A stretch of DNA of 64,000 nt. It comes from a virus. Shown piece by piece: positions 2,751 to 11,231 of this stretch. Every line of letters begins with the position of its first letter. Position 1 is the stretch's first letter. A model generated the notes under the pieces. The model was not told the origin of the DNA, did not search any database, and was given only the letters and a program-made list of their open reading frames with translations. The stretch is taken from IMG/VR virus record IMGVR_UViG_3300024348_000004; one strand, written 5' to 3'. Position numbers and translations under genes: made by a program.

Positions 2751-4793
2751 ATGGCATCAGGTTCACAGAAGGTAAAAACACCGCAGGGCTGGAATTCTAC
2801 CCAAGGTGCTTGGGTTAAAACAGGTTCAACCACATGGAAAGCGGTAGACCAAATTTACGTTAAGACACCTACAGGGTGGAATAATGCATCGGGTCAACAG
2901 TCTGTACAACAACCTTACCCATACATTGCTAATAGTCAGACCCCATATATTGCGAATGCACAGCAACCGTATCCTTACATTGCTAATGCACAGACGCCTT
3001 ATATCGCTAACGCTCAGCAACCGTATCCGTACATTGCCAATAATCAGACGCCTTATATCGCTGCCGCTCAACAACCGTATCCTTATATAGCAAATAGTCA
3101 AACTCCATTTACGTACCAAAATAGACAACCATTTACGTATAGGAATCCTGTAAATGCACAGACACCATTTACGTATCAGAACAGGACACCATTTACATAT
3201 AGGAACCCAGTTAATGCTCAAACGCCTTATATCGCTAGCGCTCAGCAACCGTATCCGTACATTGCTAATAGTCAGACCCCATATATCGCTAATGCTCAAC
3301 AACCGTATCCTTATATAGCAAATAGTCAAACACCATATATTGCGAGTGCCCAGCAACCGTATCCATATATTGCTAATGCTCAAACGCCTTATATTGCTAA
3401 CGCTAGACAACCTGCTATTTATCAGAATCCATCAAGTTCACAGACACCTTACATTGCTCAGGCAAGACAACCTGCTGGATATAGAAATCCTGTTTCTGCA
3501 CAACAACCATATATCGCTAATGCTAGACAACCATTTACATACAGAAACCCTGTAAATGCTCAAACGCCTTATATTGCGAATGCTAGACAACCATTTACGT
3601 ATAGAAACCCAGTGAATGGTCAAAATCCGTACATTGCGAACGCACAACAACCATATCCGTATATTGCTAATAGTCAGACTCCATATATTGCGAATGCTCA
3701 ACAACCGTATCCATATATTGCGAATGCTCAAACGCCTTATATTGCTAACGCTAGACAACCAAACACATACGCCCGACAAGGTAGAACACCGTTCACGTAT
3801 CAGAACAGGTCTCCATTTACATACAGAAGCCCAGTTAACGGACAACAACCATTTACGTACCAAAACAGGTCTCCATTTACATATAGAAACCCTGTAGGAT
3901 ATCAAGTACCATTTACGTATCAAAATAGGTCACCGTTCACTTATAGAAACCCTGTAGGATATCGAGTACCATTTACGTATCAGAACAGACAACCTAGTAC
4001 GTATAGAAACCCAGTGAATGGACAACAACCATATATCGCTAACGCTAGACAACCTGCTGGTTACAGAAACCCAGTATCAGCACAGCAACCATATATTGCT
4101 AACGCTAGATACCCTGCTAACGCTCAGTCACCTAGTAATGCTCAATCGCCGTTTACTTACAATGCTAGATACCCTGCTAACGCTCAGAGTCCTAGTAATG
4201 GTCAAACACCGTTTACTTACAATGCTAGGTATCCTGCTAACGCTCAGAGTCCTAGTAATGGTCAAACACCGTTTACTTACAATGCTAGGTATCCAGCGAT
4301 TTACACTGCTAATGCTAGAGCATCTGTGAGTTCAAGAAGTCCTGGCACCTATCCATACAGGTCACCTGTTGGTTATTGGGAATCTAGTACTAACAGTGCT
4401 AGTAATTATCAGATGGGATATGTTGAGGGTGTAGGTTTATACTCTGCTTTTGGTGCCCCTTTGGGAAGTTATCAAACCGCTTTTGGTTCTTTACAGAACT
4501 TTAGTACTGTTACTGGTAACACCGGCTTGCCATTCTACGCTGTTACAGCATACCAAAGCAGTCAGTCTGCATCGACAAGTTTTTACATTGGTAGTAACAG
4601 TACCCTACCAATTGGCCCGCTGTCGCAAATTCTTGTTCAATGGACTAGAGGTTATTACCCATCACCTTTCTCAATACCATTCCAGTATATGCAGTTTTCA
4701 CAAGGTACGTGGTATATACAAGGTAGAAATATGATAAGAGAAAACAGTCCAGCTGGTGCTTATGGCGCCCTTAGAATAGATATAACAAAATAG
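2751..4793 (+). CDS. Repeat protein A (putative fibre/adhesin): Trp-rich N-terminus, 460-aa Pro-delimited array, 165-aa unique C-terminal domain
   Basis: ORF track; modules YIANA(Q/R)QP, YPYIANSQTP, FTYQNRxP, FTYRNPVNAQTP. Confidence 0.8.
   Translation: MASGSQKVKTPQGWNSTQGAWVKTGSTTWKAVDQIYVKTPTGWNNASGQQSVQQPYPYIANSQTPYIANAQQPYPYIANAQTPYIANAQQPYPYIANNQTPYIAAAQQPYPYIANSQTPFTYQNRQPFTYRNPVNAQTPFTYQNRTPFTYRNPVNAQTPYIASAQQPYPYIANSQTPYIANAQQPYPYIANSQTPYIASAQQPYPYIANAQTPYIANARQPAIYQNPSSSQTPYIAQARQPAGYRNPVSAQQPYIANARQPFTYRNPVNAQTPYIANARQPFTYRNPVNGQNPYIANAQQPYPYIANSQTPYIANAQQPYPYIANAQTPYIANARQPNTYARQGRTPFTYQNRSPFTYRSPVNGQQPFTYQNRSPFTYRNPVGYQVPFTYQNRSPFTYRNPVGYRVPFTYQNRQPSTYRNPVNGQQPYIANARQPAGYRNPVSAQQPYIANARYPANAQSPSNAQSPFTYNARYPANAQSPSNGQTPFTYNARYPANAQSPSNGQTPFTYNARYPAIYTANARASVSSRSPGTYPYRSPVGYWESSTNSASNYQMGYVEGVGLYSAFGAPLGSYQTAFGSLQNFSTVTGNTGLPFYAVTAYQSSQSASTSFYIGSNSTLPIGPLSQILVQWTRGYYPSPFSIPFQYMQFSQGTWYIQGRNMIRENSPAGAYGALRIDITK
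2916..4295 (+). repeat. Coding modular repeat array of protein A (24 x [10- or 12-aa module + 8-aa module])
   Basis: Manual parse of the translation, aa 56-515. Confidence 0.9.
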
Positions 4794-4804
4794 GAATTAG
4801 AAAT

Positions 4805-5065
4805 ATGGCATTATATGAAACAACAATAACAAACCTCGATGGAAGTACTGAAATTGCTTTAAATAAAGATTATATATTTTCTGATATTGACGGAGATGTA
4901 ACTTGTACACAAACAGGATTTAAAGCAGCATACACAGTAGGAGAAAATACGGACTTAGCACAAGCTGAGACAGATATCGATGCTTGTATTGCTAACAACT
5001 TGGAAGTTTGGGCTTGGCAGAAGTATTACCAAAACCCTCTGAACCCAAGTGAACTAAGGGATTAA
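4805..5065 (+). CDS. Small acidic hypothetical protein between the two repeat genes
   Basis: 86-aa ORF with upstream AGGA RBS. Confidence 0.7.
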   Translation: MALYETTITNLDGSTEIALNKDYIFSDIDGDVTCTQTGFKAAYTVGENTDLAQAETDIDACIANNLEVWAWQKYYQNPLNPSELRD

Positions 5066-5076
5066 TAGGAAAAGAC

Positions 5077-6588
5077 ATGGCACAAGGCAGTTATCAGGTT
5101 CCATCCATTGCACAACAACCGTTCACGTACAGCGCATCGTATCGTGTGCCTTATATTGCGAATGCTAGACAACCATTTACGTATAGAAACCCATTTACGT
5201 ATCGTGTGCCTTATATTGCTAACGCAAGACAACCATTTACGTATAGAAACCCATTCACATATAGGGTTCCATACATTGCGAATGCTAGACAACCTAGTAC
5301 GTATCGTAACCCATTCACATATAGGGTTCCGTTCACATACCAAAACAGGTCTCCATTTACATATAGAAACCCTGTAAGTTATCGTGTGCCATTTACTTAC
5401 AATAATAGACAACCATTTACATATAGAAACCCTGTAAATGCTCAAACGCCTTATATTGCCAATGCTAGACAACCTGCTGGTTACAGAAACCCTGTTTCAG
5501 GACAACAACCATATATTGCGAATGCTAGACAACCTGCTGGTTACAGAAACCCAGTATCAGCACAGCAACCATATATTGCTAACGCAAGGAATCCATTCAC
5601 ATATAGAAACCCTGTAAACGGTCAACAACCATATATTGCGAGTGCTCAGCAACCATATCCATATATTGCTAATAGTCAAACACCGTTCACTTATCAGAAC
5701 AGACAACCTAGTACATATGCTAGACAGGGTCAAACACCATTTACGTACCAAAATAGACAACCTGGCACATATGCTAGACAGGGTCAAACTCCATTTACGT
5801 ACCAAAATAGACAACCATTTACGTATAGAAACCCAGTGAATGGTCAAACGCCATTTACGTATCAGAACAGACAACCTAGTACGTATAGAAACCCAGTGAA
5901 TGGTCAAACTCCATTTACGTACCAAAACAGGTCTCCATTTACATATAGAAACCCTGTAGGTTATCAAGTACCATTTACATATAGTAATAGACAACCTGCT
6001 ATCTATGGAAACCCTGTAAGTTATCAAGTACCATTTACGTATCAGAACAGACAACCTAGTACATATCAGAGAACTGGTCAAACACCATTTACGTACCAAA
6101 ATAGACAACCTGGCACATATGCTAGACAGGGTCAAACACCATTTACGTATCAGAACAGACAACCTGGCACATATGCTAGACAGGGTCAAACACCGTTCAC
6201 GTATCAGAACAGACAACCTAGTACGTATAGAAACCCAGTGAATGGACAACAACCATATATCGCTAACGCTAGACAACCTAGTACGTATAGAAATCCAGTG
6301 AATGGTCAACAACCATATATTGCTAATGCAAGACAACCTGCCACCTATGCTAGACAGGGTAGAACACCGTTCACTTATCAGAACAGACAACCTGGCACAT
6401 ATGCACGACAAGGACAAACTCCTTTCACGTATCAACACAGACAACCTTCAACATATAGTAGACAAGGTAGAACACCGTTCACTTATCAGAACAGACAACC
6501 TTCGACATATGCTAGACAAGGTAGAACACCTGTTATACGTTGGGATGGTAACTTGTCACAACAGTGGCCTGCTGCTGATATAAGTTAA
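5077..6588 (+). CDS. Repeat protein B (mirror partner of protein A)
   Basis: 503 aa, almost entirely the same module vocabulary; AGGAAA RBS. Confidence 0.8.
   Translation: MAQGSYQVPSIAQQPFTYSASYRVPYIANARQPFTYRNPFTYRVPYIANARQPFTYRNPFTYRVPYIANARQPSTYRNPFTYRVPFTYQNRSPFTYRNPVSYRVPFTYNNRQPFTYRNPVNAQTPYIANARQPAGYRNPVSGQQPYIANARQPAGYRNPVSAQQPYIANARNPFTYRNPVNGQQPYIASAQQPYPYIANSQTPFTYQNRQPSTYARQGQTPFTYQNRQPGTYARQGQTPFTYQNRQPFTYRNPVNGQTPFTYQNRQPSTYRNPVNGQTPFTYQNRSPFTYRNPVGYQVPFTYSNRQPAIYGNPVSYQVPFTYQNRQPSTYQRTGQTPFTYQNRQPGTYARQGQTPFTYQNRQPGTYARQGQTPFTYQNRQPSTYRNPVNGQQPYIANARQPSTYRNPVNGQQPYIANARQPATYARQGRTPFTYQNRQPGTYARQGQTPFTYQHRQPSTYSRQGRTPFTYQNRQPSTYARQGRTPVIRWDGNLSQQWPAADIS
5152..6531 (+). repeat. 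Coding modular repeat array of protein B (24 x [8-aa module + 10- or 12-aa module])
   Basis: Manual parse, aa 26-485; 25+460+18 = 503 aa. Confidence 0.9.
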
Positions 6589-6636: not shown

Positions 6637-8232
6637 ATGGAAAAAATAACAACACTTGATGCACTACTTCTAAAATTAGAAGAAACCCCTATACCAACTG
6701 AAGAACTCAAAACTTATGGTCATGCTCAGAGGCATCAATTACCCCAATATCATTTAGGGTCTACTAATATTGATGAGATTGATAAAGACAGCGAGTTCTA
6801 TAAAGTCTTATCATATTTTTTTGATAATGTTATGCCTCCCCTACGACTTCTTAAGTGGTCAGACCTTGATACACTGAGAAGACAGAAAGAGATTACGACC
6901 TTTAATGGATTACAATTTCAGTGTAATGCATATCACAAATTCATGCCAGATATTTACACTTCAGGAATCCAACCCGAAGGTGAAAAAAACATAACAACAA
7001 AATTCCAAGTTGCTACTGTTGATGATGAAATAAAAGAAATTAAAGACTACTGTGGTGAAGCAACCGACCCACGTGACTTTCATCAAGAAGATTTTAACAT
7101 ATCTATGAATTCAATGTATTATCATAGTGCGAAAGCTCATTGGATTACACAAAGTATTAGAGAGGAGGGATTGTGGGCTCCTATTCAAGGATATACTCAA
7201 TCTCCTAACGGTGGTAATTTCACACAACTTATGATACATCCAGGCAGTGTACGTTCAGGTGTATTTGAAGAGATGGAAGACCCAACACATGAACTTTTGA
7301 TATGGGATTTCCAAGATACATTCCCCGACATTCCATCAATGTCCATAGACGATTCTTTGGATTACTGGAAAGAAACCATCCTCAATGGTAATACAAAATG
7401 CAATCATAAAAACTTGAGTGTTATATTTACTAATGGTACACTTGAATACCAATCCGACCATTCCAATATAGAATTTAGAAGAGAAGTTTGGAAACATAGT
7501 AAGAAGTTTACAGAACTTTCTGCTGGAAAACCTCTAACAATTTATATTGGTTATGACCCTAGACACAATAATCTAGAGTTGTACTCCAAGCAATCTATAT
7601 TAGATGCAGTGAAGAGAAGTGTTGGTGGTGGGAGATTTGTTGATTACACTAGGTTTACGCCAGAAATTAAAATACTTGACATTTCAAAGATACCCGAGTA
7701 CACTAGAGAGTATGCAAATCAATCTACTGAGTTTACATACAGTAGATTCTTAATACCGTATCTTGAGAACTATGAAGGGTTTAGTATGTTTGTAGATGAT
7801 GACTTCATCTTTAATAAAAACCCTATGCCGATGTTCTATTACCTAGGTCAAGATGATGCAGTAGCATGTATCAAGTATCCGCAAATTAAACATGATGAAA
7901 CCAAGTTTGATGGAGAAGTTAATATAGATTATCCATGTAAACTATGGTCATCTATGATGTTCTTCAATAACAGTCATCCCGACTGTAAGAAGTTAACACC
8001 CGAAGTGGTTAACACTTGGACAGGTGCCCAATTGCATCAATTCGAATGGACTGATAAGATTGCTCCCATCCCCGAGAAGTATGTGTTCGTTGAGGGATAT
8101 GATGACCCCGAGGTTAAGTGGGATTTCTCTGCTGTTCACTATACAAGAGGTGGGCCATGGATAAATGGGATGGATACAGAACACATAAATAATTTAGAAC
8201 ACTACAACAAAGTTAAAAACAGCTTGTTGTGA
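6637..8232 (+). CDS. GT-A fold glycosyltransferase fused to an N-terminal, possibly ParB/Srx-like, domain
   Basis: C-terminal YIGYDPR, STEFTYSRFLIPYL, DDDF, WSSMM, HYTRGGPW; N-terminal SIREEGLWAPI...HPGSVR. Confidence 0.7.
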   Translation: MEKITTLDALLLKLEETPIPTEELKTYGHAQRHQLPQYHLGSTNIDEIDKDSEFYKVLSYFFDNVMPPLRLLKWSDLDTLRRQKEITTFNGLQFQCNAYHKFMPDIYTSGIQPEGEKNITTKFQVATVDDEIKEIKDYCGEATDPRDFHQEDFNISMNSMYYHSAKAHWITQSIREEGLWAPIQGYTQSPNGGNFTQLMIHPGSVRSGVFEEMEDPTHELLIWDFQDTFPDIPSMSIDDSLDYWKETILNGNTKCNHKNLSVIFTNGTLEYQSDHSNIEFRREVWKHSKKFTELSAGKPLTIYIGYDPRHNNLELYSKQSILDAVKRSVGGGRFVDYTRFTPEIKILDISKIPEYTREYANQSTEFTYSRFLIPYLENYEGFSMFVDDDFIFNKNPMPMFYYLGQDDAVACIKYPQIKHDETKFDGEVNIDYPCKLWSSMMFFNNSHPDCKKLTPEVVNTWTGAQLHQFEWTDKIAPIPEKYVFVEGYDDPEVKWDFSAVHYTRGGPWINGMDTEHINNLEHYNKVKNSLL

Positions 8233-8270
8233 TAACAATCTTATGATATAATGGAGAAAAAGGATATATT

Positions 8271-8861
8271 ATGAATGCACTAATTTACACAGAAAACAAT
8301 GAACTTATGATTACCAAACCTAATGGTTTGCATTATAAGTTTGAAAATGTCGACAAACCCGAATTGGGATTTGATTATGATGTTCTAGTCTACGCTGAAG
8401 AAGAACTTAAGATTCTCAACTGGGATGTTCAAAAAGAGTTCCAAGACCAAGAACAAATTCCCTTAAATGCAGATGAAAAAGACGCTGTCGAAACTTACAT
8501 TAAAAATTCAGAACCACCTATGGGTGTCACTTTAAACAGTCAATACATTGAACAACTAGCTTATATGTGTAATAAGAATGTTGAAGCATGTGCTAACGGA
8601 TTTAATTTTTCTGATTTGGCAGAGGTTGTCTATGTTGGTAGAGAAGGTTCCAACCATCCTTACAGGTCTAATGCTAGACGTGTTATGGAGTATGCTGATG
8701 CATTATGGCACATCTTTGACCAAGTTATGAATGAGATTGTAAAAACTAGAGAAGATACTCTTAGAGATTTTGCTAGTTATGTGGAACAACTACCACAACC
8801 ACAACAAATTCCCGAAACAGAAAATTTCGCACATAATCGGGATACAAAAGTTGGCGGTTAA
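8271..8861 (+). CDS. Hypothetical protein
   Basis: 196-aa ORF, AAGGA RBS, upstream TATAAT. Confidence 0.7.
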   Translation: MNALIYTENNELMITKPNGLHYKFENVDKPELGFDYDVLVYAEEELKILNWDVQKEFQDQEQIPLNADEKDAVETYIKNSEPPMGVTLNSQYIEQLAYMCNKNVEACANGFNFSDLAEVVYVGREGSNHPYRSNARRVMEYADALWHIFDQVMNEIVKTREDTLRDFASYVEQLPQPQQIPETENFAHNRDTKVGG

Positions 8862-9630
8862 TCTAAATCCAAAGGTTGTTCATATTGATAAACCTTTTAA
8901 AATTCAAGACCTACCTTTACAAGATATCTATGTATTGGATGATTGGCTCAGTGTTGATTTATTTCATCACTATGCAAATGTCCATCTAAGAACTTATAGT
9001 GAATGGTCTAAAACAAATGAAGTTCAGAGCGGTAGCGCTACTGGATTTCCCCATCATAGTTTTTGGGGTGCAACTTACTTTAGAGGAGCATTTCAAGAGG
9101 ATGGTTCACTAGGTAAAGGTGATTTGGTTCTTGAGAGGGGGTCAGACCCATTGAATGCCGTGTTTGCTAGATATATAGATAGCAGACTAAGAACTGAATT
9201 TGGATTTAAATGGGAGAAATTTCAATACATGGGATTGAACTCTCAAACACAGGGACTAGATGGGACAACACATTCTGATTGTGCTCAAGATGAAGATTGG
9301 AATATATCGTTTCTATATTATTGCAGTCCTGTATGGTATCCATCATGGGGTGGAGATTTAAGAATTTATGATACTATGCAATTTGGACTTGATGGGAGAG
9401 CAGACCACGTCAAGAATCACCAAGTTGCTTCTGTAGAATATAAACCAAACAGATTGCTGATGTTTGACGGAAGAATTCCACATGGTGCAGATGCACCTAC
9501 AACAAAAGCACGATACATGGACAGACGTTCTATAGTATTAAGAGGTGATGAAGTATCACTTACACATGAAGGAGAAGAATATCATGCCAATGATAGAATT
9601 TCACAGTTACAGCTCAGAGACCCTCGCTGA
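8851..9630 (+). CDS. 2OG-Fe(II) oxygenase (prolyl-hydroxylase-like)
   Basis: HSD...WGGDL...PNRLLMFDGRIPH...R; start uncertain (TTG 8851 or 8770). Confidence 0.75.
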   Translation: MAVNLNPKVVHIDKPFKIQDLPLQDIYVLDDWLSVDLFHHYANVHLRTYSEWSKTNEVQSGSATGFPHHSFWGATYFRGAFQEDGSLGKGDLVLERGSDPLNAVFARYIDSRLRTEFGFKWEKFQYMGLNSQTQGLDGTTHSDCAQDEDWNISFLYYCSPVWYPSWGGDLRIYDTMQFGLDGRADHVKNHQVASVEYKPNRLLMFDGRIPHGADAPTTKARYMDRRSIVLRGDEVSLTHEGEEYHANDRISQLQLRDPR

Positions 9631-10495
9631 TTTTAAACCAGTATTAGCAAAGAGTATTTTACCCGAGTGGTGGAAGAAAACTAAGGTAGCGGAGTTTACT
9701 CAAGGTAGACAACAACAAACTATTCGTGCTTGTCCAGCAATGGATGATTGGTTAAAGAGCGGATGGATTATTGTTGCTAATAGAGACATTCATGTTATAA
9801 ATGGTGAAGGAATCAATGATAGTGGCACCAATAAAGTATTTACTTGGGATGGTAAGGATGCTTCAACCCATTCACAGTCCCATCCTAAAGAACAAGTTAG
9901 AGAATCTTTTGAATACTATGGTAGTGGTGACGGTAAAGCTCCTATAAAAGATGCATTTAAATTCAGAAATCCGTGGAACATAAAAACCCCGCCTGGCTAT
10001 TCATGTTTCTACTTAGACCCATTCTTATTTCAGAATAAATACTTTGCATGTTGGCAGGGTATTATTGATACTGATACATTTAATGTTGGTCTAGACAATG
10101 CACAGATAATTTTTTATCCTAAAGTCGACCATTCATTTGTTATACCAAAAGGAACCCCTCTTTGTCAGATTATACCGTTTAAGAGAGAAGAGTGGCATGC
10201 TTCATTTGAAATAAAATCACATGAACACTGGCAAGAAACTAAAGGAAGAGGGTATAAAATAGACCCACATGACCCTTCTACTGAGAAGGTTTTATCAATG
10301 CAAGAATGGGGTCATAAAGCGCCATTTGAAGGGAAGGATGGTATTAGAGATTTGGGCCCGTATAGAAATAAGGGTTATTGGGTACCTAAAGCTAGACTAT
10401 TTAAAAATGATAATCCCCCACCCGAATGCCCTATGCACGTAAGTGAAGAACAAGAACCTACTGAGGTTCAACTGGAGTTAGACTTTAATGATTAG
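9584..10495 (+). CDS. Conserved phage hypothetical protein (CPA...GW / FxNPWxIKTPPGYS family, often next to 2OG oxygenases)
   Basis: IRACPAMDD, KFRNPWNIKTPPGYSC, IPKGTPLCQIIPFKRE; GGAG RBS before ATG 9584. Confidence 0.65.
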   Translation: MPMIEFHSYSSETLADFKPVLAKSILPEWWKKTKVAEFTQGRQQQTIRACPAMDDWLKSGWIIVANRDIHVINGEGINDSGTNKVFTWDGKDASTHSQSHPKEQVRESFEYYGSGDGKAPIKDAFKFRNPWNIKTPPGYSCFYLDPFLFQNKYFACWQGIIDTDTFNVGLDNAQIIFYPKVDHSFVIPKGTPLCQIIPFKREEWHASFEIKSHEHWQETKGRGYKIDPHDPSTEKVLSMQEWGHKAPFEGKDGIRDLGPYRNKGYWVPKARLFKNDNPPPECPMHVSEEQEPTEVQLELDFND

Positions 10496-11231
10496 ATATT
10501 TATTCCCAACCGTCATCTTTCAAAGAAACATGACATGCCCAACACAGATGGGAGATGAGCTCGTTCTAGATGATGAATACATGAAAATGTTGAAAGATGA
10601 GATGGATGCTATGCGTAGACGTGATGGTGTTGGTAGACAAGTTTCAAATGCTTATACTGGATGGCAGTCTAACGATGGTGTAGACAATAATCCAACGTTC
10701 CAAAAATTAATGAATCGAATTAGTACAGTATTCTACCAAGAGGTTTGGAATTACTTTGGGGTTGACCCAACAAAGACAGCATTTCAAATGGGTAACTGTT
10801 GGGCAAATATAAATGATAAAACTGCATGGAACAGACCACACTTACATAATGGTTGTTGGTATAGTGGCGTCTTCTATATCCATGCTGATGGTGATGAAGG
10901 AGATTTTGTTGCTATCAATACAGACCCTAAAGTTGTTTCTGATATGCCAAATTCCAATAGACACCAAGAGTCATGGGACTTCAAACCAAGAACAGGGGAA
11001 TTGATTTTATTCCCTAGTGGTATGATGCATATGGTAGCACCAAACTTGACAGACAAGGACAGATATTCAATATCATTCAATTCAGCATTTCAAATTAAAG
11101 ATTATGAAGCTTATAGAAACAATTTCGCTACAGGTTGGCATCCCGATGAGAATACATTTGGTTTAGATGAAAACGGTATGTTACAAAAGTACCAATATGA
11201 ACCTATTGACTGGGAAAATCAACAAGGATAA
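10488..11231 (+). CDS. Putative 2OG-Fe(II) oxygenase (TIGR02466-like)
   Basis: WANIN...HLH...SGVFY...LILFPS..HMV.PN...RYSISFN. Confidence 0.75.
   Translation: MIRYLFPTVIFQRNMTCPTQMGDELVLDDEYMKMLKDEMDAMRRRDGVGRQVSNAYTGWQSNDGVDNNPTFQKLMNRISTVFYQEVWNYFGVDPTKTAFQMGNCWANINDKTAWNRPHLHNGCWYSGVFYIHADGDEGDFVAINTDPKVVSDMPNSNRHQESWDFKPRTGELILFPSGMMHMVAPNLTDKDRYSISFNSAFQIKDYEAYRNNFATGWHPDENTFGLDENGMLQKYQYEPIDWENQQG

What the first reader, a model, noticed from the sequence alone, without database searches (positions are those of the whole stretch)
3390..6030. Rare module variants co-vary between facing positions of A and B
Seen: the only AIY-type 12-mers face each other (A AIYQNPSSSQTP, B AIYGNPVSYQVP). 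A's single YIAQARQP faces B's single FTYSNRQP, a larger residue opposite a smaller one. AGYRNPVSxQQP faces FTYRNPV(G/S)YxVP in 4/4 cases, two in each orientation. The aromatic-free ANAQSPSNxQxP modules face the doubly aromatic xTYRNPFTYRVP modules in 3/3 cases. Inference: large/small side-chain packing across strands, which supports physical contact independently of the length pattern.
Basis: partly seen in the sequence, partly recalled or inferred. Interest (0 to 1): 0.8.

Follow-up and report, generated by a model that had tools for sequence, protein, structure and literature searches.

The report
Pairing code of two-chain phage fibre
Two neighbouring genes of an uncultured marine T4-like phage encode repeat proteins whose units, common and rare alike, fit each other like zipper teeth when one chain is read backwards, which points to a two-chain fibre design that I could not find described.

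Summary
Gene A (2751-4793) and gene B (5077-6588) each hold 24 eight-residue cores alternating with 10- or 12-residue linkers, all ending in proline. Read antiparallel, all 24 linker lengths match and all 24 cores are unlike (YIA opposite FTY); no other register comes close.

All four stated facings are present. Two are family-wide rules in 44 complete related gene pairs (35 architectures):
- AxYxxP opposite xxYxVP, 73 cases in both orientations, with about 10 of some 83 AxY hexamers facing other types.
- A-first aromatic-free hexamers opposite xTYxVP.

Two occur in one lineage only and are at chance level:
- AIY opposite AIY. The two AIY hexamers are not in direct contact.
- YIAQARQP opposite FTYSNRQP.

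Pairing preferences learned from unrelated pairs score the window's arrangement above all 5000 shuffles that keep length and type. Coupling is confined to odd positions and is local and antiparallel inside each unit. Two residues off the proline-on-proline register, none of 3721 aromatic residues faces another aromatic and 64% face Gly/Ala/Ser.

Best reading: A and B zip into a long antiparallel beta fibre. No structure supports this yet.

The scan found the same design before, once elsewhere in this genome and in at least five other genomes. I found no paper describing it.

The parts
2751..4793 (+). Gene A (680 aa): N-terminal ~55 aa, 24-core repeat array, 165-aa C-terminal region
   Evidence: ORF and unit parse. 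The start matches the homologues' MATGSQKVKTP.
2751..2915 (+). Conserved N-terminal module of A (aa 1-55), probably the attachment end together with B's C-terminal tail
   Evidence: 78-95% identical in 53 metagenomic proteins and conserved across loci.
2916..4295 (+). Repeat array of A (aa 56-515): cores YIAxAxxP or FTYxxRxP alternating with 10- or 12-residue linkers
3414..3473 (+). Rare A units AIYQNP-SSSQTP and YIAQARQP
   Evidence: They face B VSYQVP, AIYGNP and FTYSNRQP. This combination occurs only in the window clade.
3474..3509 (+). A unit AGYRNPVSAQQP (first copy)
   Evidence: Faces B FTYRNPVGYQVP at 5938-5973.
3876..3971 (+). A units FTYRNPVGYQVP (3876-3911) and FTYRNPVGYRVP (3936-3971), with a core between them
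   Evidence: They face B AGYRNPVSAQQP (5536-5571) and AGYRNPVSGQQP (5476-5511).
4056..4091 (+). A unit AGYRNPVSAQQP (second copy)
   Evidence: Faces B FTYRNPVSYRVP at 5356-5391.
4116..4271 (+). Three aromatic-free A linkers ANAQSPSNxQxP (4116-4151, 4176-4211, 4236-4271)
   Evidence: They face the three B xTYRNPFTYRVP linkers.
4296..4790 (+). Variable C-terminal region of A (aa 516-680), candidate distal tip domain
   Evidence: Shared only with the close relatives L001-L007. AlphaFold2 model unusable, pLDDT 36.
4805..5065 (+). Small ORF (86 aa) between A and B, candidate tip-specific assembly factor
   Evidence: A gap of 260-530 nt between the two genes occurs only in loci whose upstream chain has a globular C-terminal domain. 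Homologues occur only in the window clade. No family match.
5077..6588 (+). Gene B (503 aa): almost entirely a 24-core repeat array plus an 18-aa conserved C-terminal tail
5176..5331 (+). Three doubly aromatic B linkers xTYRNPFTYRVP (5176-5211, 5236-5271, 5296-5331)
5356..5391 (+). B unit FTYRNPVSYRVP
   Evidence: Faces A AGYRNPVSAQQP at 4056-4091.
5476..5571 (+). B units AGYRNPVSGQQP (5476-5511) and AGYRNPVSAQQP (5536-5571)
5938..6033 (+). B units FTYRNPVGYQVP (5938-5973), FTYSNRQP (5974-5997) and AIYGNPVSYQVP (5998-6033)
6532..6585 (+). Conserved C-terminal tail of B (VIRWDG..WP..), lying opposite A residues 37-54 in the antiparallel register
   Evidence: Conserved in all loci. The alignment offset is constant at 35-36 in most pairs.

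Best explanation
Chains A and B are the two strands of one long virion fibre. They lie antiparallel and in register along their whole repeat arrays, about 460 residues each. That is of the order of 150 nm if fully extended (my estimate from about 3.3 A per residue).

The conformation is beta-strand-like:
- All unit lengths are even, so every proline falls on the same side of the strand ladder.
- Even positions are conserved or vary freely.
- Odd positions carry the aromatic residues and are fitted to the partner chain.

A unit that carries Phe/Tyr is always answered by a unit with Gly/Ala/Ser/Val at the facing places. A small alphabet of complementary units therefore fixes both partner and register:
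- YIA core with FTY core
- YPYIAN decamer with xTYARQG decamer
- xTYRNP with V/SNxQxP
- AxYxxP with xxYxVP
- A-first aromatic-free hexamer with xTYxVP

Rare variants co-vary because moving an aromatic from one chain to the other needs the opposite change in the partner. For example, Phe1 opposite Gly/Ala3 becomes Ala1 opposite Tyr3.

Shown here: the code, its conservation, its locality and its orientation.

Inferred:
- physical contact and the beta conformation;
- the number of A-B duplexes per fibre (possibly three, as in other phage fibres);
- which end attaches. The conserved end, formed by A's N-terminus and B's C-terminus, is probably the virion attachment. A's variable C-terminal domain is probably the distal tip.
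For: Window:
- The antiparallel register gives 24/24 equal linker lengths and 24/24 unlike cores. Every other register or orientation gives 18/24 or fewer.
- The 12-mer classes map one-to-one, P = 4e-7 under free permutation and 5e-5 under block permutation.

Family:
- 76 loci gave 48 non-identical gene pairs. A single gapless reversed alignment puts nearly all prolines of the shorter chain on prolines of the other, for example 45/47, 56/60 and 61/65.
- Close relatives differ by unit insertions in one gene matched at the mirror position in the other.
- The code is obeyed in 96% of hexamers, 98% of octamers and 90% of decamers, with both orientations of every pair type.
- In the leave-related-out test, 37 of 44 pairs beat all 500 shuffles, median z 4.8. 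For the window z is 6.2-8.4.

Residue level:
- Coupling occurs only between odd positions. The strongest is core a3-b5 (Z 46). Coupling at a4-b4 is near zero although both positions vary.
- Blocks {a1,a3}x{b5,b7} and {a5,a7}x{b1} survive conditioning, which shows antiparallel order inside a unit.
- Coupling against residue shift peaks at 0 and +2 and falls away on both sides.
- At +2, 0 of 3721 aromatics face an aromatic.

Controls:
- There is no inverted DNA repeat between the genes. All DNA similarity is direct, so the mirror exists only at the protein level.
- The AlphaFold2 model of B alone has pLDDT 26 and no secondary structure, so there is no sign of a self-contained fold.
Against: - No structure or complex model could be made, because the tools fold single chains only.
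- The residue register is ambiguous between proline-on-proline and two residues off it.
- A two-stranded ribbon with an exposed aromatic face would be unusual, so a higher-order bundle has to be assumed.
- There is no cultured phage, proteomic or imaging evidence that A and B are in the virion.
- Related pairs share ancestry, so cell counts overstate the number of independent events. The orientation swaps, the 35 architectures and the leave-related-out test reduce this concern but do not remove it.
Confidence: 0.75

Rival explanations
1. Each chain folds on its own into a beta-solenoid with one 18- or 20-residue coil per core-plus-linker unit. The two solenoids pack side by side in opposite directions, so coil i of A touches coil 25-i of B.
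For: The unit lengths of 18 and 20 residues are typical of solenoid coils (own knowledge). Both chains have 24 units. Antiparallel side-by-side packing would also give mirror-order covariation.
Against: - Every unit of A (cores, decamers and both hexamers of each 12-mer) has a complementary partner. Only one face of a coil would touch a neighbouring solenoid.
- Exact residue-for-residue length matching over about 460 residues is not needed for side-by-side packing.
- The AlphaFold2 model of B alone has no secondary structure at all, pLDDT 26. This is weak evidence, since the alignment was shallow.
Confidence: 0.1
2. A and B never touch. The mirror order arises because both bind a third, symmetric component, or from recombination between the two repeat genes.
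For: A and B share direct DNA similarity of 75-87%, including a cassette at 3906-4118 and 5326-5538, so exchange between the genes is plausible.
Against: - Direct-repeat recombination copies units in the same order, not in reversed and complemented order.
- There is no inverted DNA repeat.
- Mirrored insertions in close relatives need two separate events kept by selection.
- Coupling is local to within about two residues and confined to one face.
- No candidate third component is known.
Confidence: 0.05
3. The facing of rare variants is a chance product of low-complexity repeats and post-hoc choice of classes.
For: Two of the four sub-claims (AIY opposite AIY, YIAQARQP opposite FTYSNRQP) are single events at chance level.
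Against: - The block-permutation probability in the window is 5e-5.
- Rules learned from pairs sharing under 15% of their facing-unit pairs with the tested locus predict the arrangement in 37 of 44 pairs.
- AxY opposite xxYxVP occurs 73 times, against about 10 AxY hexamers with other partners.
Confidence: 0.02

Closest known systems
[quoted passage not shown] 2010, as described in PMC9659904)
   Same: Both are thin fibre segments of T4-like phages made of long beta strands that run along the fibre axis in both directions, next to a distal binding domain.
   Different: In gp37 each of three identical chains runs out and folds back. Here the outward and return strands would be two different gene products. 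There is no sequence similarity to any solved structure. The His-x-His metal sites of gp37 (own knowledge) are absent, since B has a single His and A's repeat array has none. The array is many times longer and carries a unit-level complementarity code.
Heterospecific coiled-coil zippers and register-setting charge pairs of collagen heterotrimers (own knowledge)
   Same: Partner choice and register are set by complementary residues at periodic positions of repeat sequences.
   Different: Those are alpha-helical or triple-helical and mostly parallel. Here the coupling has period 2, the chains are antiparallel, the units are proline-punctuated, and the units have several lengths that must also match.
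Cross-strand aromatic-glycine pairing in antiparallel beta sheets ('aromatic rescue of glycine', Merkel and Regan 1998; own knowledge, not checked here)
   Same: Tyr/Phe sit opposite Gly/Ala/Ser across two antiparallel strands.
   Different: That is a general statistical preference inside globular sheets. It is not a fibre family or a code running over hundreds of residues between two gene products.
Stalk of streptococcal antigen I/II, where an alanine-rich helix pairs with a proline-rich polyproline helix (own knowledge, not checked here)
   Same: Two repeat regions, one proline-rich, pair antiparallel with matched repeat numbers to make a long thin stalk.
   Different: That is a single chain, pairing a helix with a polyproline helix, and has no beta-type period-2 coupling.
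Two-protein chain-like fibre of Pseudomonas podophage A1002 (PMC13730344)
   Same: A phage fibre built from more than one gene product.
   Different: That fibre is a string of globular dimers docked on a rope protein. It is not two extended chains paired residue by residue.

Membership tests
T4 gp37-type needle | Sequence similarity to gp37 or another solved fibre protein | tested here: not met
   A phmmer search of A and B against all PDB chains gave no hit better than E = 0.18, and the hits were unrelated proteins.
T4 gp37-type needle | One chain folds back on itself so that the outward and return strands lie in one polypeptide | tested here: not met
   The two halves are always separate genes. 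Across the loci, 64 ORFs carry the N-terminal motif, 73 carry the C-terminal motif, and none carries both.
T4 gp37-type needle | His-x-His metal-binding repeats (own knowledge) | tested here: not met
   The unit lists of A and B contain one His in B (FTYQHRQP) and none in A's array.
T4 gp37-type needle | Antiparallel beta strands running along the fibre axis | not testable with these tools
   This is inferred only, from the period-2, local, antiparallel covariation. No complex could be modelled.
Collagen-like fibre | Gly-X-Y triplet repeat | tested here: not met
   Units are 6, 8, 10 or 12 residues long and end in Pro, with no Gly every third residue.
Pfam PF10511 Cementoin (transglutaminase-substrate hexapeptide repeat) | Score above the gathering cut-off with a matched stretch that passes on its own | tested here: inconclusive
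   A scores 31.2 bits against a cut-off of 27, but no stretch passes on its own. B scores 16.1 bits, below the cut-off. I read this as a compositional match of VNxQxP-like hexamers, not membership.
Hint / intein-like autoprocessing domain | Hint domain match in the chain | tested here: not met
   Absent from the window's A and B. Present at the C-terminal end of the upstream chain in relatives.
Mirror-coded two-gene fibre family of marine T4-like phages (defined by this scan, not published) | Two adjacent same-strand genes; a gapless reversed alignment aligns the prolines; facing units are complementary in type | tested here: met
   Window. Family.
Mirror-coded two-gene fibre family of marine T4-like phages (defined by this scan, not published) | Conserved N-terminal module on the upstream chain and a conserved RWD..WP tail on the downstream chain | tested here: met

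The most novel reading that the evidence does not exclude
This is a natural protein analogue of base pairing. A small alphabet of complementary peptide units lets two different polypeptides recognise each other, set their register and build an antiparallel beta fibre of the order of 150 nm. Length and unit content evolve by mirrored, compensating changes in two genes. Rare units are moved aromatic 'knobs' answered by moved 'holes'.
Probability: 0.6. Interest if true: 0.9.

Novelty: categorically new. Interest (0 to 1): 0.8.

Why it matters
If the two chains really zip together, this is a fibre architecture with no described counterpart. It would be a heteromeric, antiparallel, residue-for-residue paired beta structure whose partner choice and register are written in a readable unit code.

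- **Experiments.** The code gives direct rules for swap-and-rescue tests.
- **Annotation.** It would explain hundreds of unannotated 'hypothetical' gene pairs in marine T4-like phages.
- **Design.** It could offer a design principle for programmable beta-strand assemblies, much as heptad rules did for coiled coils.
- **Phage biology.** It would add a new kind of host-recognition fibre, with a conserved attachment end and an exchangeable distal end.

Tried and rejected
**Family and identity searches**
- Pfam and PHROGs on A, B and the small ORF gave no real family.
- Megablast and tblastn against cultured phages found no cyanophage or pelagiphage relative. The only hits were Pseudomonas phage proteins made of a PATPATARQ simple repeat in an early-gene region, which I rejected as unrelated.
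- The regions I read in the nearest cultured relatives, Melnitz (19 kb upstream of the neck genes) and Mosig (20 kb next to them), hold no such pair.
- PDB sequence searches gave nothing. The ESM Atlas gave nothing for A's C-terminal domain.

**Structure prediction**
- AlphaFold2 of A's C-terminal 170 residues gave pLDDT 36, which is unusable, so no fold search was run.
- AlphaFold2 of B alone gave pLDDT 26 with no secondary structure. This is uninformative except that it gives no support to a self-folding solenoid.

**Other checks**
- I looked for a natural single-chain (fused hairpin) version in the 76 loci and found none.
- A simple Pearson correlation of side-chain volumes in the proline-on-proline register was clear only at the central positions (hexamer 3-3 r = -0.61, decamer 5-5 r = -0.74) and mixed elsewhere. 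I replaced it with the aromatic-count and shift analyses.
- The second mirror pair reported upstream in this genome could not be reached. The nearest held record, G001, shows only the A/B pair, and by my estimate it ends before that position.
- No exact T4 late-promoter motif (TATAAATA) lies immediately upstream of A or B.
Full report
**What is there.** The window has about 37% G+C, and its neck and terminase genes are 65-74% identical in DNA to Methylophilales phage Melnitz, Pelagibacter phage Mosig and Synechococcus myophages. It is therefore an uncultured marine T4-like phage.

Three ORFs lie on the + strand after a fibre-like gene (155-2713; PHROG 697 'structural protein'):
- gene A, 2751-4793, 680 aa;
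- an 86-aa ORF, 4805-5065;
- gene B, 5077-6588, 503 aa.

Splitting at prolines shows that A and B each contain exactly 24 eight-residue cores (YIAxAxxP or FTYxxRxP). These alternate with linkers of 10 residues (YPYIANxQTP or xTYARQGxTP) or 12 residues, which are two hexamers.

**The register.** I scanned all parallel and antiparallel unit registers. One stands out: A core i opposite B core 25-i, and A linker i opposite B linker 24-i. It gives 24/24 equal linker lengths and 24/24 unlike cores (YIA opposite FTY). The next best register gives 18/24, and no parallel register exceeds 14/22 on linker lengths or 17/21 on cores.

The mirror is not a DNA feature. The only inverted repeat between the genes is one 19-nt chance match, and all A-B DNA similarity is direct, at 75-87%.

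**The four claims in the window.** All four stated facings are present in that register.
- The 14 facing 12-mers fall into five classes per chain, and these map one-to-one. The probability is 4e-7 under free permutation of B's 12-mers and 5e-5 if whole runs are permuted as blocks.
- The two one-off claims are weak on their own. AIY opposite AIY has about a 1 in 14 chance.
- A has four one-off octamers and B has five. One one-off pair faces another, where 0.83 is expected.

**Homologues.** A scan of IMG/VR with B returned 76 loci, and nearly all carry two adjacent same-strand repeat genes. There are 48 non-identical pairs, with chain lengths from about 230 to 740 aa.

In almost every pair a single gapless alignment of the upstream chain against the reversed downstream chain superposes nearly all prolines of the shorter chain. 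Examples are 45/47, 51/54, 56/60, 61/65, and 64/67 for the window. In most pairs the offset is constant at 35-36. The best parallel alignment reaches only about 55-65%.

Close relatives of the window differ by inserted units in A that are matched by inserted complementary units at the mirror position of B. L001 has an extra core plus VN-type 12-mer, and L002 has two extra core-decamer units.

**Unit-type covariation in the family.** In a 12-mer, the first hexamer of one chain faces the second hexamer of the other. At hexamer level the contingency table is almost diagonal:
- xTYxxP faces aromatic-free hexamers in about 450 cases.
- AxYxxP faces xxYxVP in 73 cases. About 10 of some 83 AxY hexamers face other types, mostly aromatic-free hexamers.
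- xTYxVP faces aromatic-free hexamers in 94 cases, mostly those starting with Ala.

Both orientations of every pair type occur. For example, AxY is on the upstream chain in 48 cases and on the downstream chain in 25. The ANAQSP / FTYRVP cassette is inverted between the window lineage and the L019 lineage. This is the protein counterpart of a G-C to C-G swap.

Over 44 complete pairs with 35 distinct architectures, the code holds for 96% of hexamers, 98% of octamers and 90% of decamers. The genuine departures I inspected are:
- L043, a truncated gene whose alignment is probably off by a unit;
- L061, where the Val at position 5 sits on the other chain.

**Independence from length.** I learned residue pair log-odds from 42 loci outside the window's own clade (L001-L007).
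- The window's real arrangement scores 218 bits.
- Shuffles that keep unit length average -141 bits, with a maximum of 15.
- Shuffles that keep length and broad type average 104 bits, with a maximum of 184.
- None of 5000 shuffles of either kind reaches the real score.

I repeated this for every locus, excluding training loci that share 15% or more of their facing-unit pairs with the tested locus. In 37 of 44 pairs the real arrangement beats all 500 shuffles that keep length and type (median z 4.8). Sub-type covariation is therefore a property of the family and is not explained by the length pattern.

**Residue-level picture.**
- With pairs oriented (YIA-type = a, FTY-type = b), mutual information is confined to odd positions. 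The main couplings are a3-b5 (Z 46), a1-b5, a5-b1, a3-b7, a1-b7 and a7-b1. In hexamers they are 1-5, 3-1 and 1-3. Positions a4 and b4 both vary but are uncoupled, at 0.02 bits above the shuffle mean (Z 1.3).
- The tables show Ala opposite Val and Val opposite Asn at hexamer positions 1/5. At positions 3/3, Tyr or Phe faces Ala or Gly (556 cases), Tyr faces Tyr (172), and small never faces small. At core a3/b5, Arg faces His, and Gly faces Phe/Ile/Val/Tyr.
- Conditioning leaves the blocks {a1,a3}x{b5,b7} and {a5,a7}x{b1}. This shows antiparallel order inside a unit, independently of unit order.
- When the partner chain is slid residue by residue, odd-odd coupling peaks at shift 0 (7.3 bits) and shift +2 (8.9 bits). 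It drops to 3.8 bits at -2 and 5.3 bits at +4. The coupling is local and one-sided, as expected for a direct neighbour plus one diagonal neighbour on one face of a twisted antiparallel ladder. That geometric reading is my inference.
- Facing hexamer pairs contain one or two aromatics in 98% of cases (exactly two in 78%), against 61% in within-locus shuffles.
- At shift +2, none of 3721 aromatic residues in 38 pairs outside the window clade faces another aromatic, and 64% face Gly/Ala/Ser. The aromatic-opposite-aromatic share is 10% at shift 0, 25% at -2 and 43% at +4 (window alone).
- In the +2 register the AGY / VxYxVP rule becomes a plain swap: Phe1 opposite Gly/Ala3 is replaced by Ala1 opposite Tyr3.

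**What this does to the four claims.**
1. *AGYRNPVSxQQP opposite xTYRNPV(G/S)YxVP.* This is a family-wide rule with few departures.
2. *ANAQSPSNxQxP opposite xTYRNPFTYRVP.* This is a family-wide rule, seen in both orientations.
3. *AIY opposite AIY.* This occurs only in the window clade. It breaks down into two hexamer pairings that each recur elsewhere:
   - AIYQNP opposite xSYQ(V/I)P, seen in L014;
   - SSSQTP opposite AIYxNP, seen in L046 and L073.

   The two AIY hexamers sit at opposite ends of the facing 12-mers and do not touch.
4. *YIAQARQP opposite FTYSNRQP.* This occurs only in the window clade. Elsewhere YIAQARQP faces FTYQNRQP, FTYQHRQP or FTYQSRQP, and position 4 shows no coupling. 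It is not supported.

**Mechanism.** The even-only unit lengths, the period-2 coupling and the residue-for-residue length matching fit two extended beta strands paired antiparallel. All prolines then fall in the same class of ladder position, and one face (the odd positions) is packed aromatic-against-small. The geometric reading rests on general beta-sheet knowledge and is an inference.

A continuous aromatic face suggests that several duplexes bundle together, but stoichiometry is unknown. B alone is predicted without any structure (pLDDT 26). This fits obligate co-folding but is weak evidence.

**Polarity of the fibre.** The end made of A's first ~55 residues and B's last ~18 residues is highly conserved across the family. 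The other end is variable. It can be:
- an unrelated domain of about 150-165 aa, as in the window;
- a short Gly-run tail;
- a Gly-run followed by a Hint/intein-like domain.

I read this as a conserved attachment end and an exchangeable distal end. The small ORF between the genes is present only where the upstream chain has a globular tip. It may be a tip-specific assembly factor.

[quoted passage not shown] That is one chain folding back, with no sequence similarity to A or B. Conceptually the code resembles heterospecific coiled coils, transposed to beta strands.

Text searches for the motifs, for two-chain antiparallel phage fibres and for cyanomyovirus fibre structures found no description. 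The two-protein chain-like fibre of phage A1002 is a different thing.

**Earlier notes of this scan.** The same design was noted before: a second pair upstream in this genome and pairs in at least five other genomes, each followed up with similar conclusions. This report adds three things:
- a test of sub-type and residue-level covariation;
- its restriction to one strand face and to a narrow register;
- the sorting of the four claims into two rules and two coincidences.

**Verdict.** All four facings are present, and together they are far beyond chance, but two of them singly are not. The large-against-small packing inference is supported by family-wide covariation, with the corrections above. 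Physical pairing is the best explanation (confidence about 0.75) but remains unproven without a structure or biochemistry.

Noticed in passing
L031:2544-4367, L049:4187-5959, L075:5608-7212 (also L025, L037, L071; proteins P0005-P0053): In many related pairs the upstream chain ends in a Gly-run followed by a Hint/intein-like domain (Cys-Phe..Gly-Thr start, ..Val-His-Asn end). Pfam Vint scores 31.1 and 27.5 bits against a cut-off of 27. Most of the 53 database relatives of A's N-terminus carry PF14890 or PF14623. In the antiparallel model this self-cleaving domain sits next to the partner chain's N-terminus. It could be an assembly cap that cuts itself off, or it could link the two chains covalently. 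Neither idea was tested.
   Followed up: partly
window 4805-5065: The 86-aa ORF between A and B has no family match. A gap of 260-530 nt between the two repeat genes occurs only in loci whose upstream chain carries a globular C-terminal domain; elsewhere the genes are 0-35 nt apart or overlap. This suggests a chaperone specific to the tip domain.
   Followed up: partly
window 2946-4295 and 5152-6501: Read in parallel, the core-type strings of A and B are identical at 18 of 24 positions (cores 1-9 and 16-24). These outer parts are therefore self-complementary, and only the middle six cores (all YIA in A, all FTY in B) forbid self-pairing. This may be a trace of descent from a self-pairing single gene.
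   Followed up: no
window 3906-4118 and 5326-5538: A three-unit cassette is shared by A and B at 80% DNA identity. Its units are an FTY core with a VxYxVP linker, an FTY core with a VN linker, and a YIA core with an AGY linker. In the duplex it faces its own copy, so it is a self-complementary 'palindromic' protein cassette. Two of the four AGY facings therefore stem from one shared cassette.
   Followed up: partly
window 2751-2915 and 6532-6585: A's N-terminal 55 residues (two KTPxGW motifs) and B's C-terminal RWD..WP tail are the most conserved parts of the family. They lie opposite each other at a near-constant offset, with Trp opposite Trp in the window.
   Followed up: partly
window 6637-11231: Directly downstream lie a 531-aa protein matching PHROG 28018 (unknown function) and several further ORFs. 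First-stage notes read these as a glycosyltransferase and 2OG-Fe(II) oxygenases. I did not test whether they modify the fibre.
   Followed up: no
window 11530-52488: All eight exact TATAAATA motifs (the T4 late-promoter consensus) in the window lie on the + strand. The count itself is not above chance (8 against 5.7 expected).
   Followed up: no
L077 (Pseudomonas phage YA3, MK819239.1 33925-35274): A hypothetical protein in the early region of temperate Pseudomonas phages is built of PATPATARQ-type repeats. It is the only tblastn hit of B among cultured phages. I judge it unrelated low-complexity similarity.
   Followed up: partly
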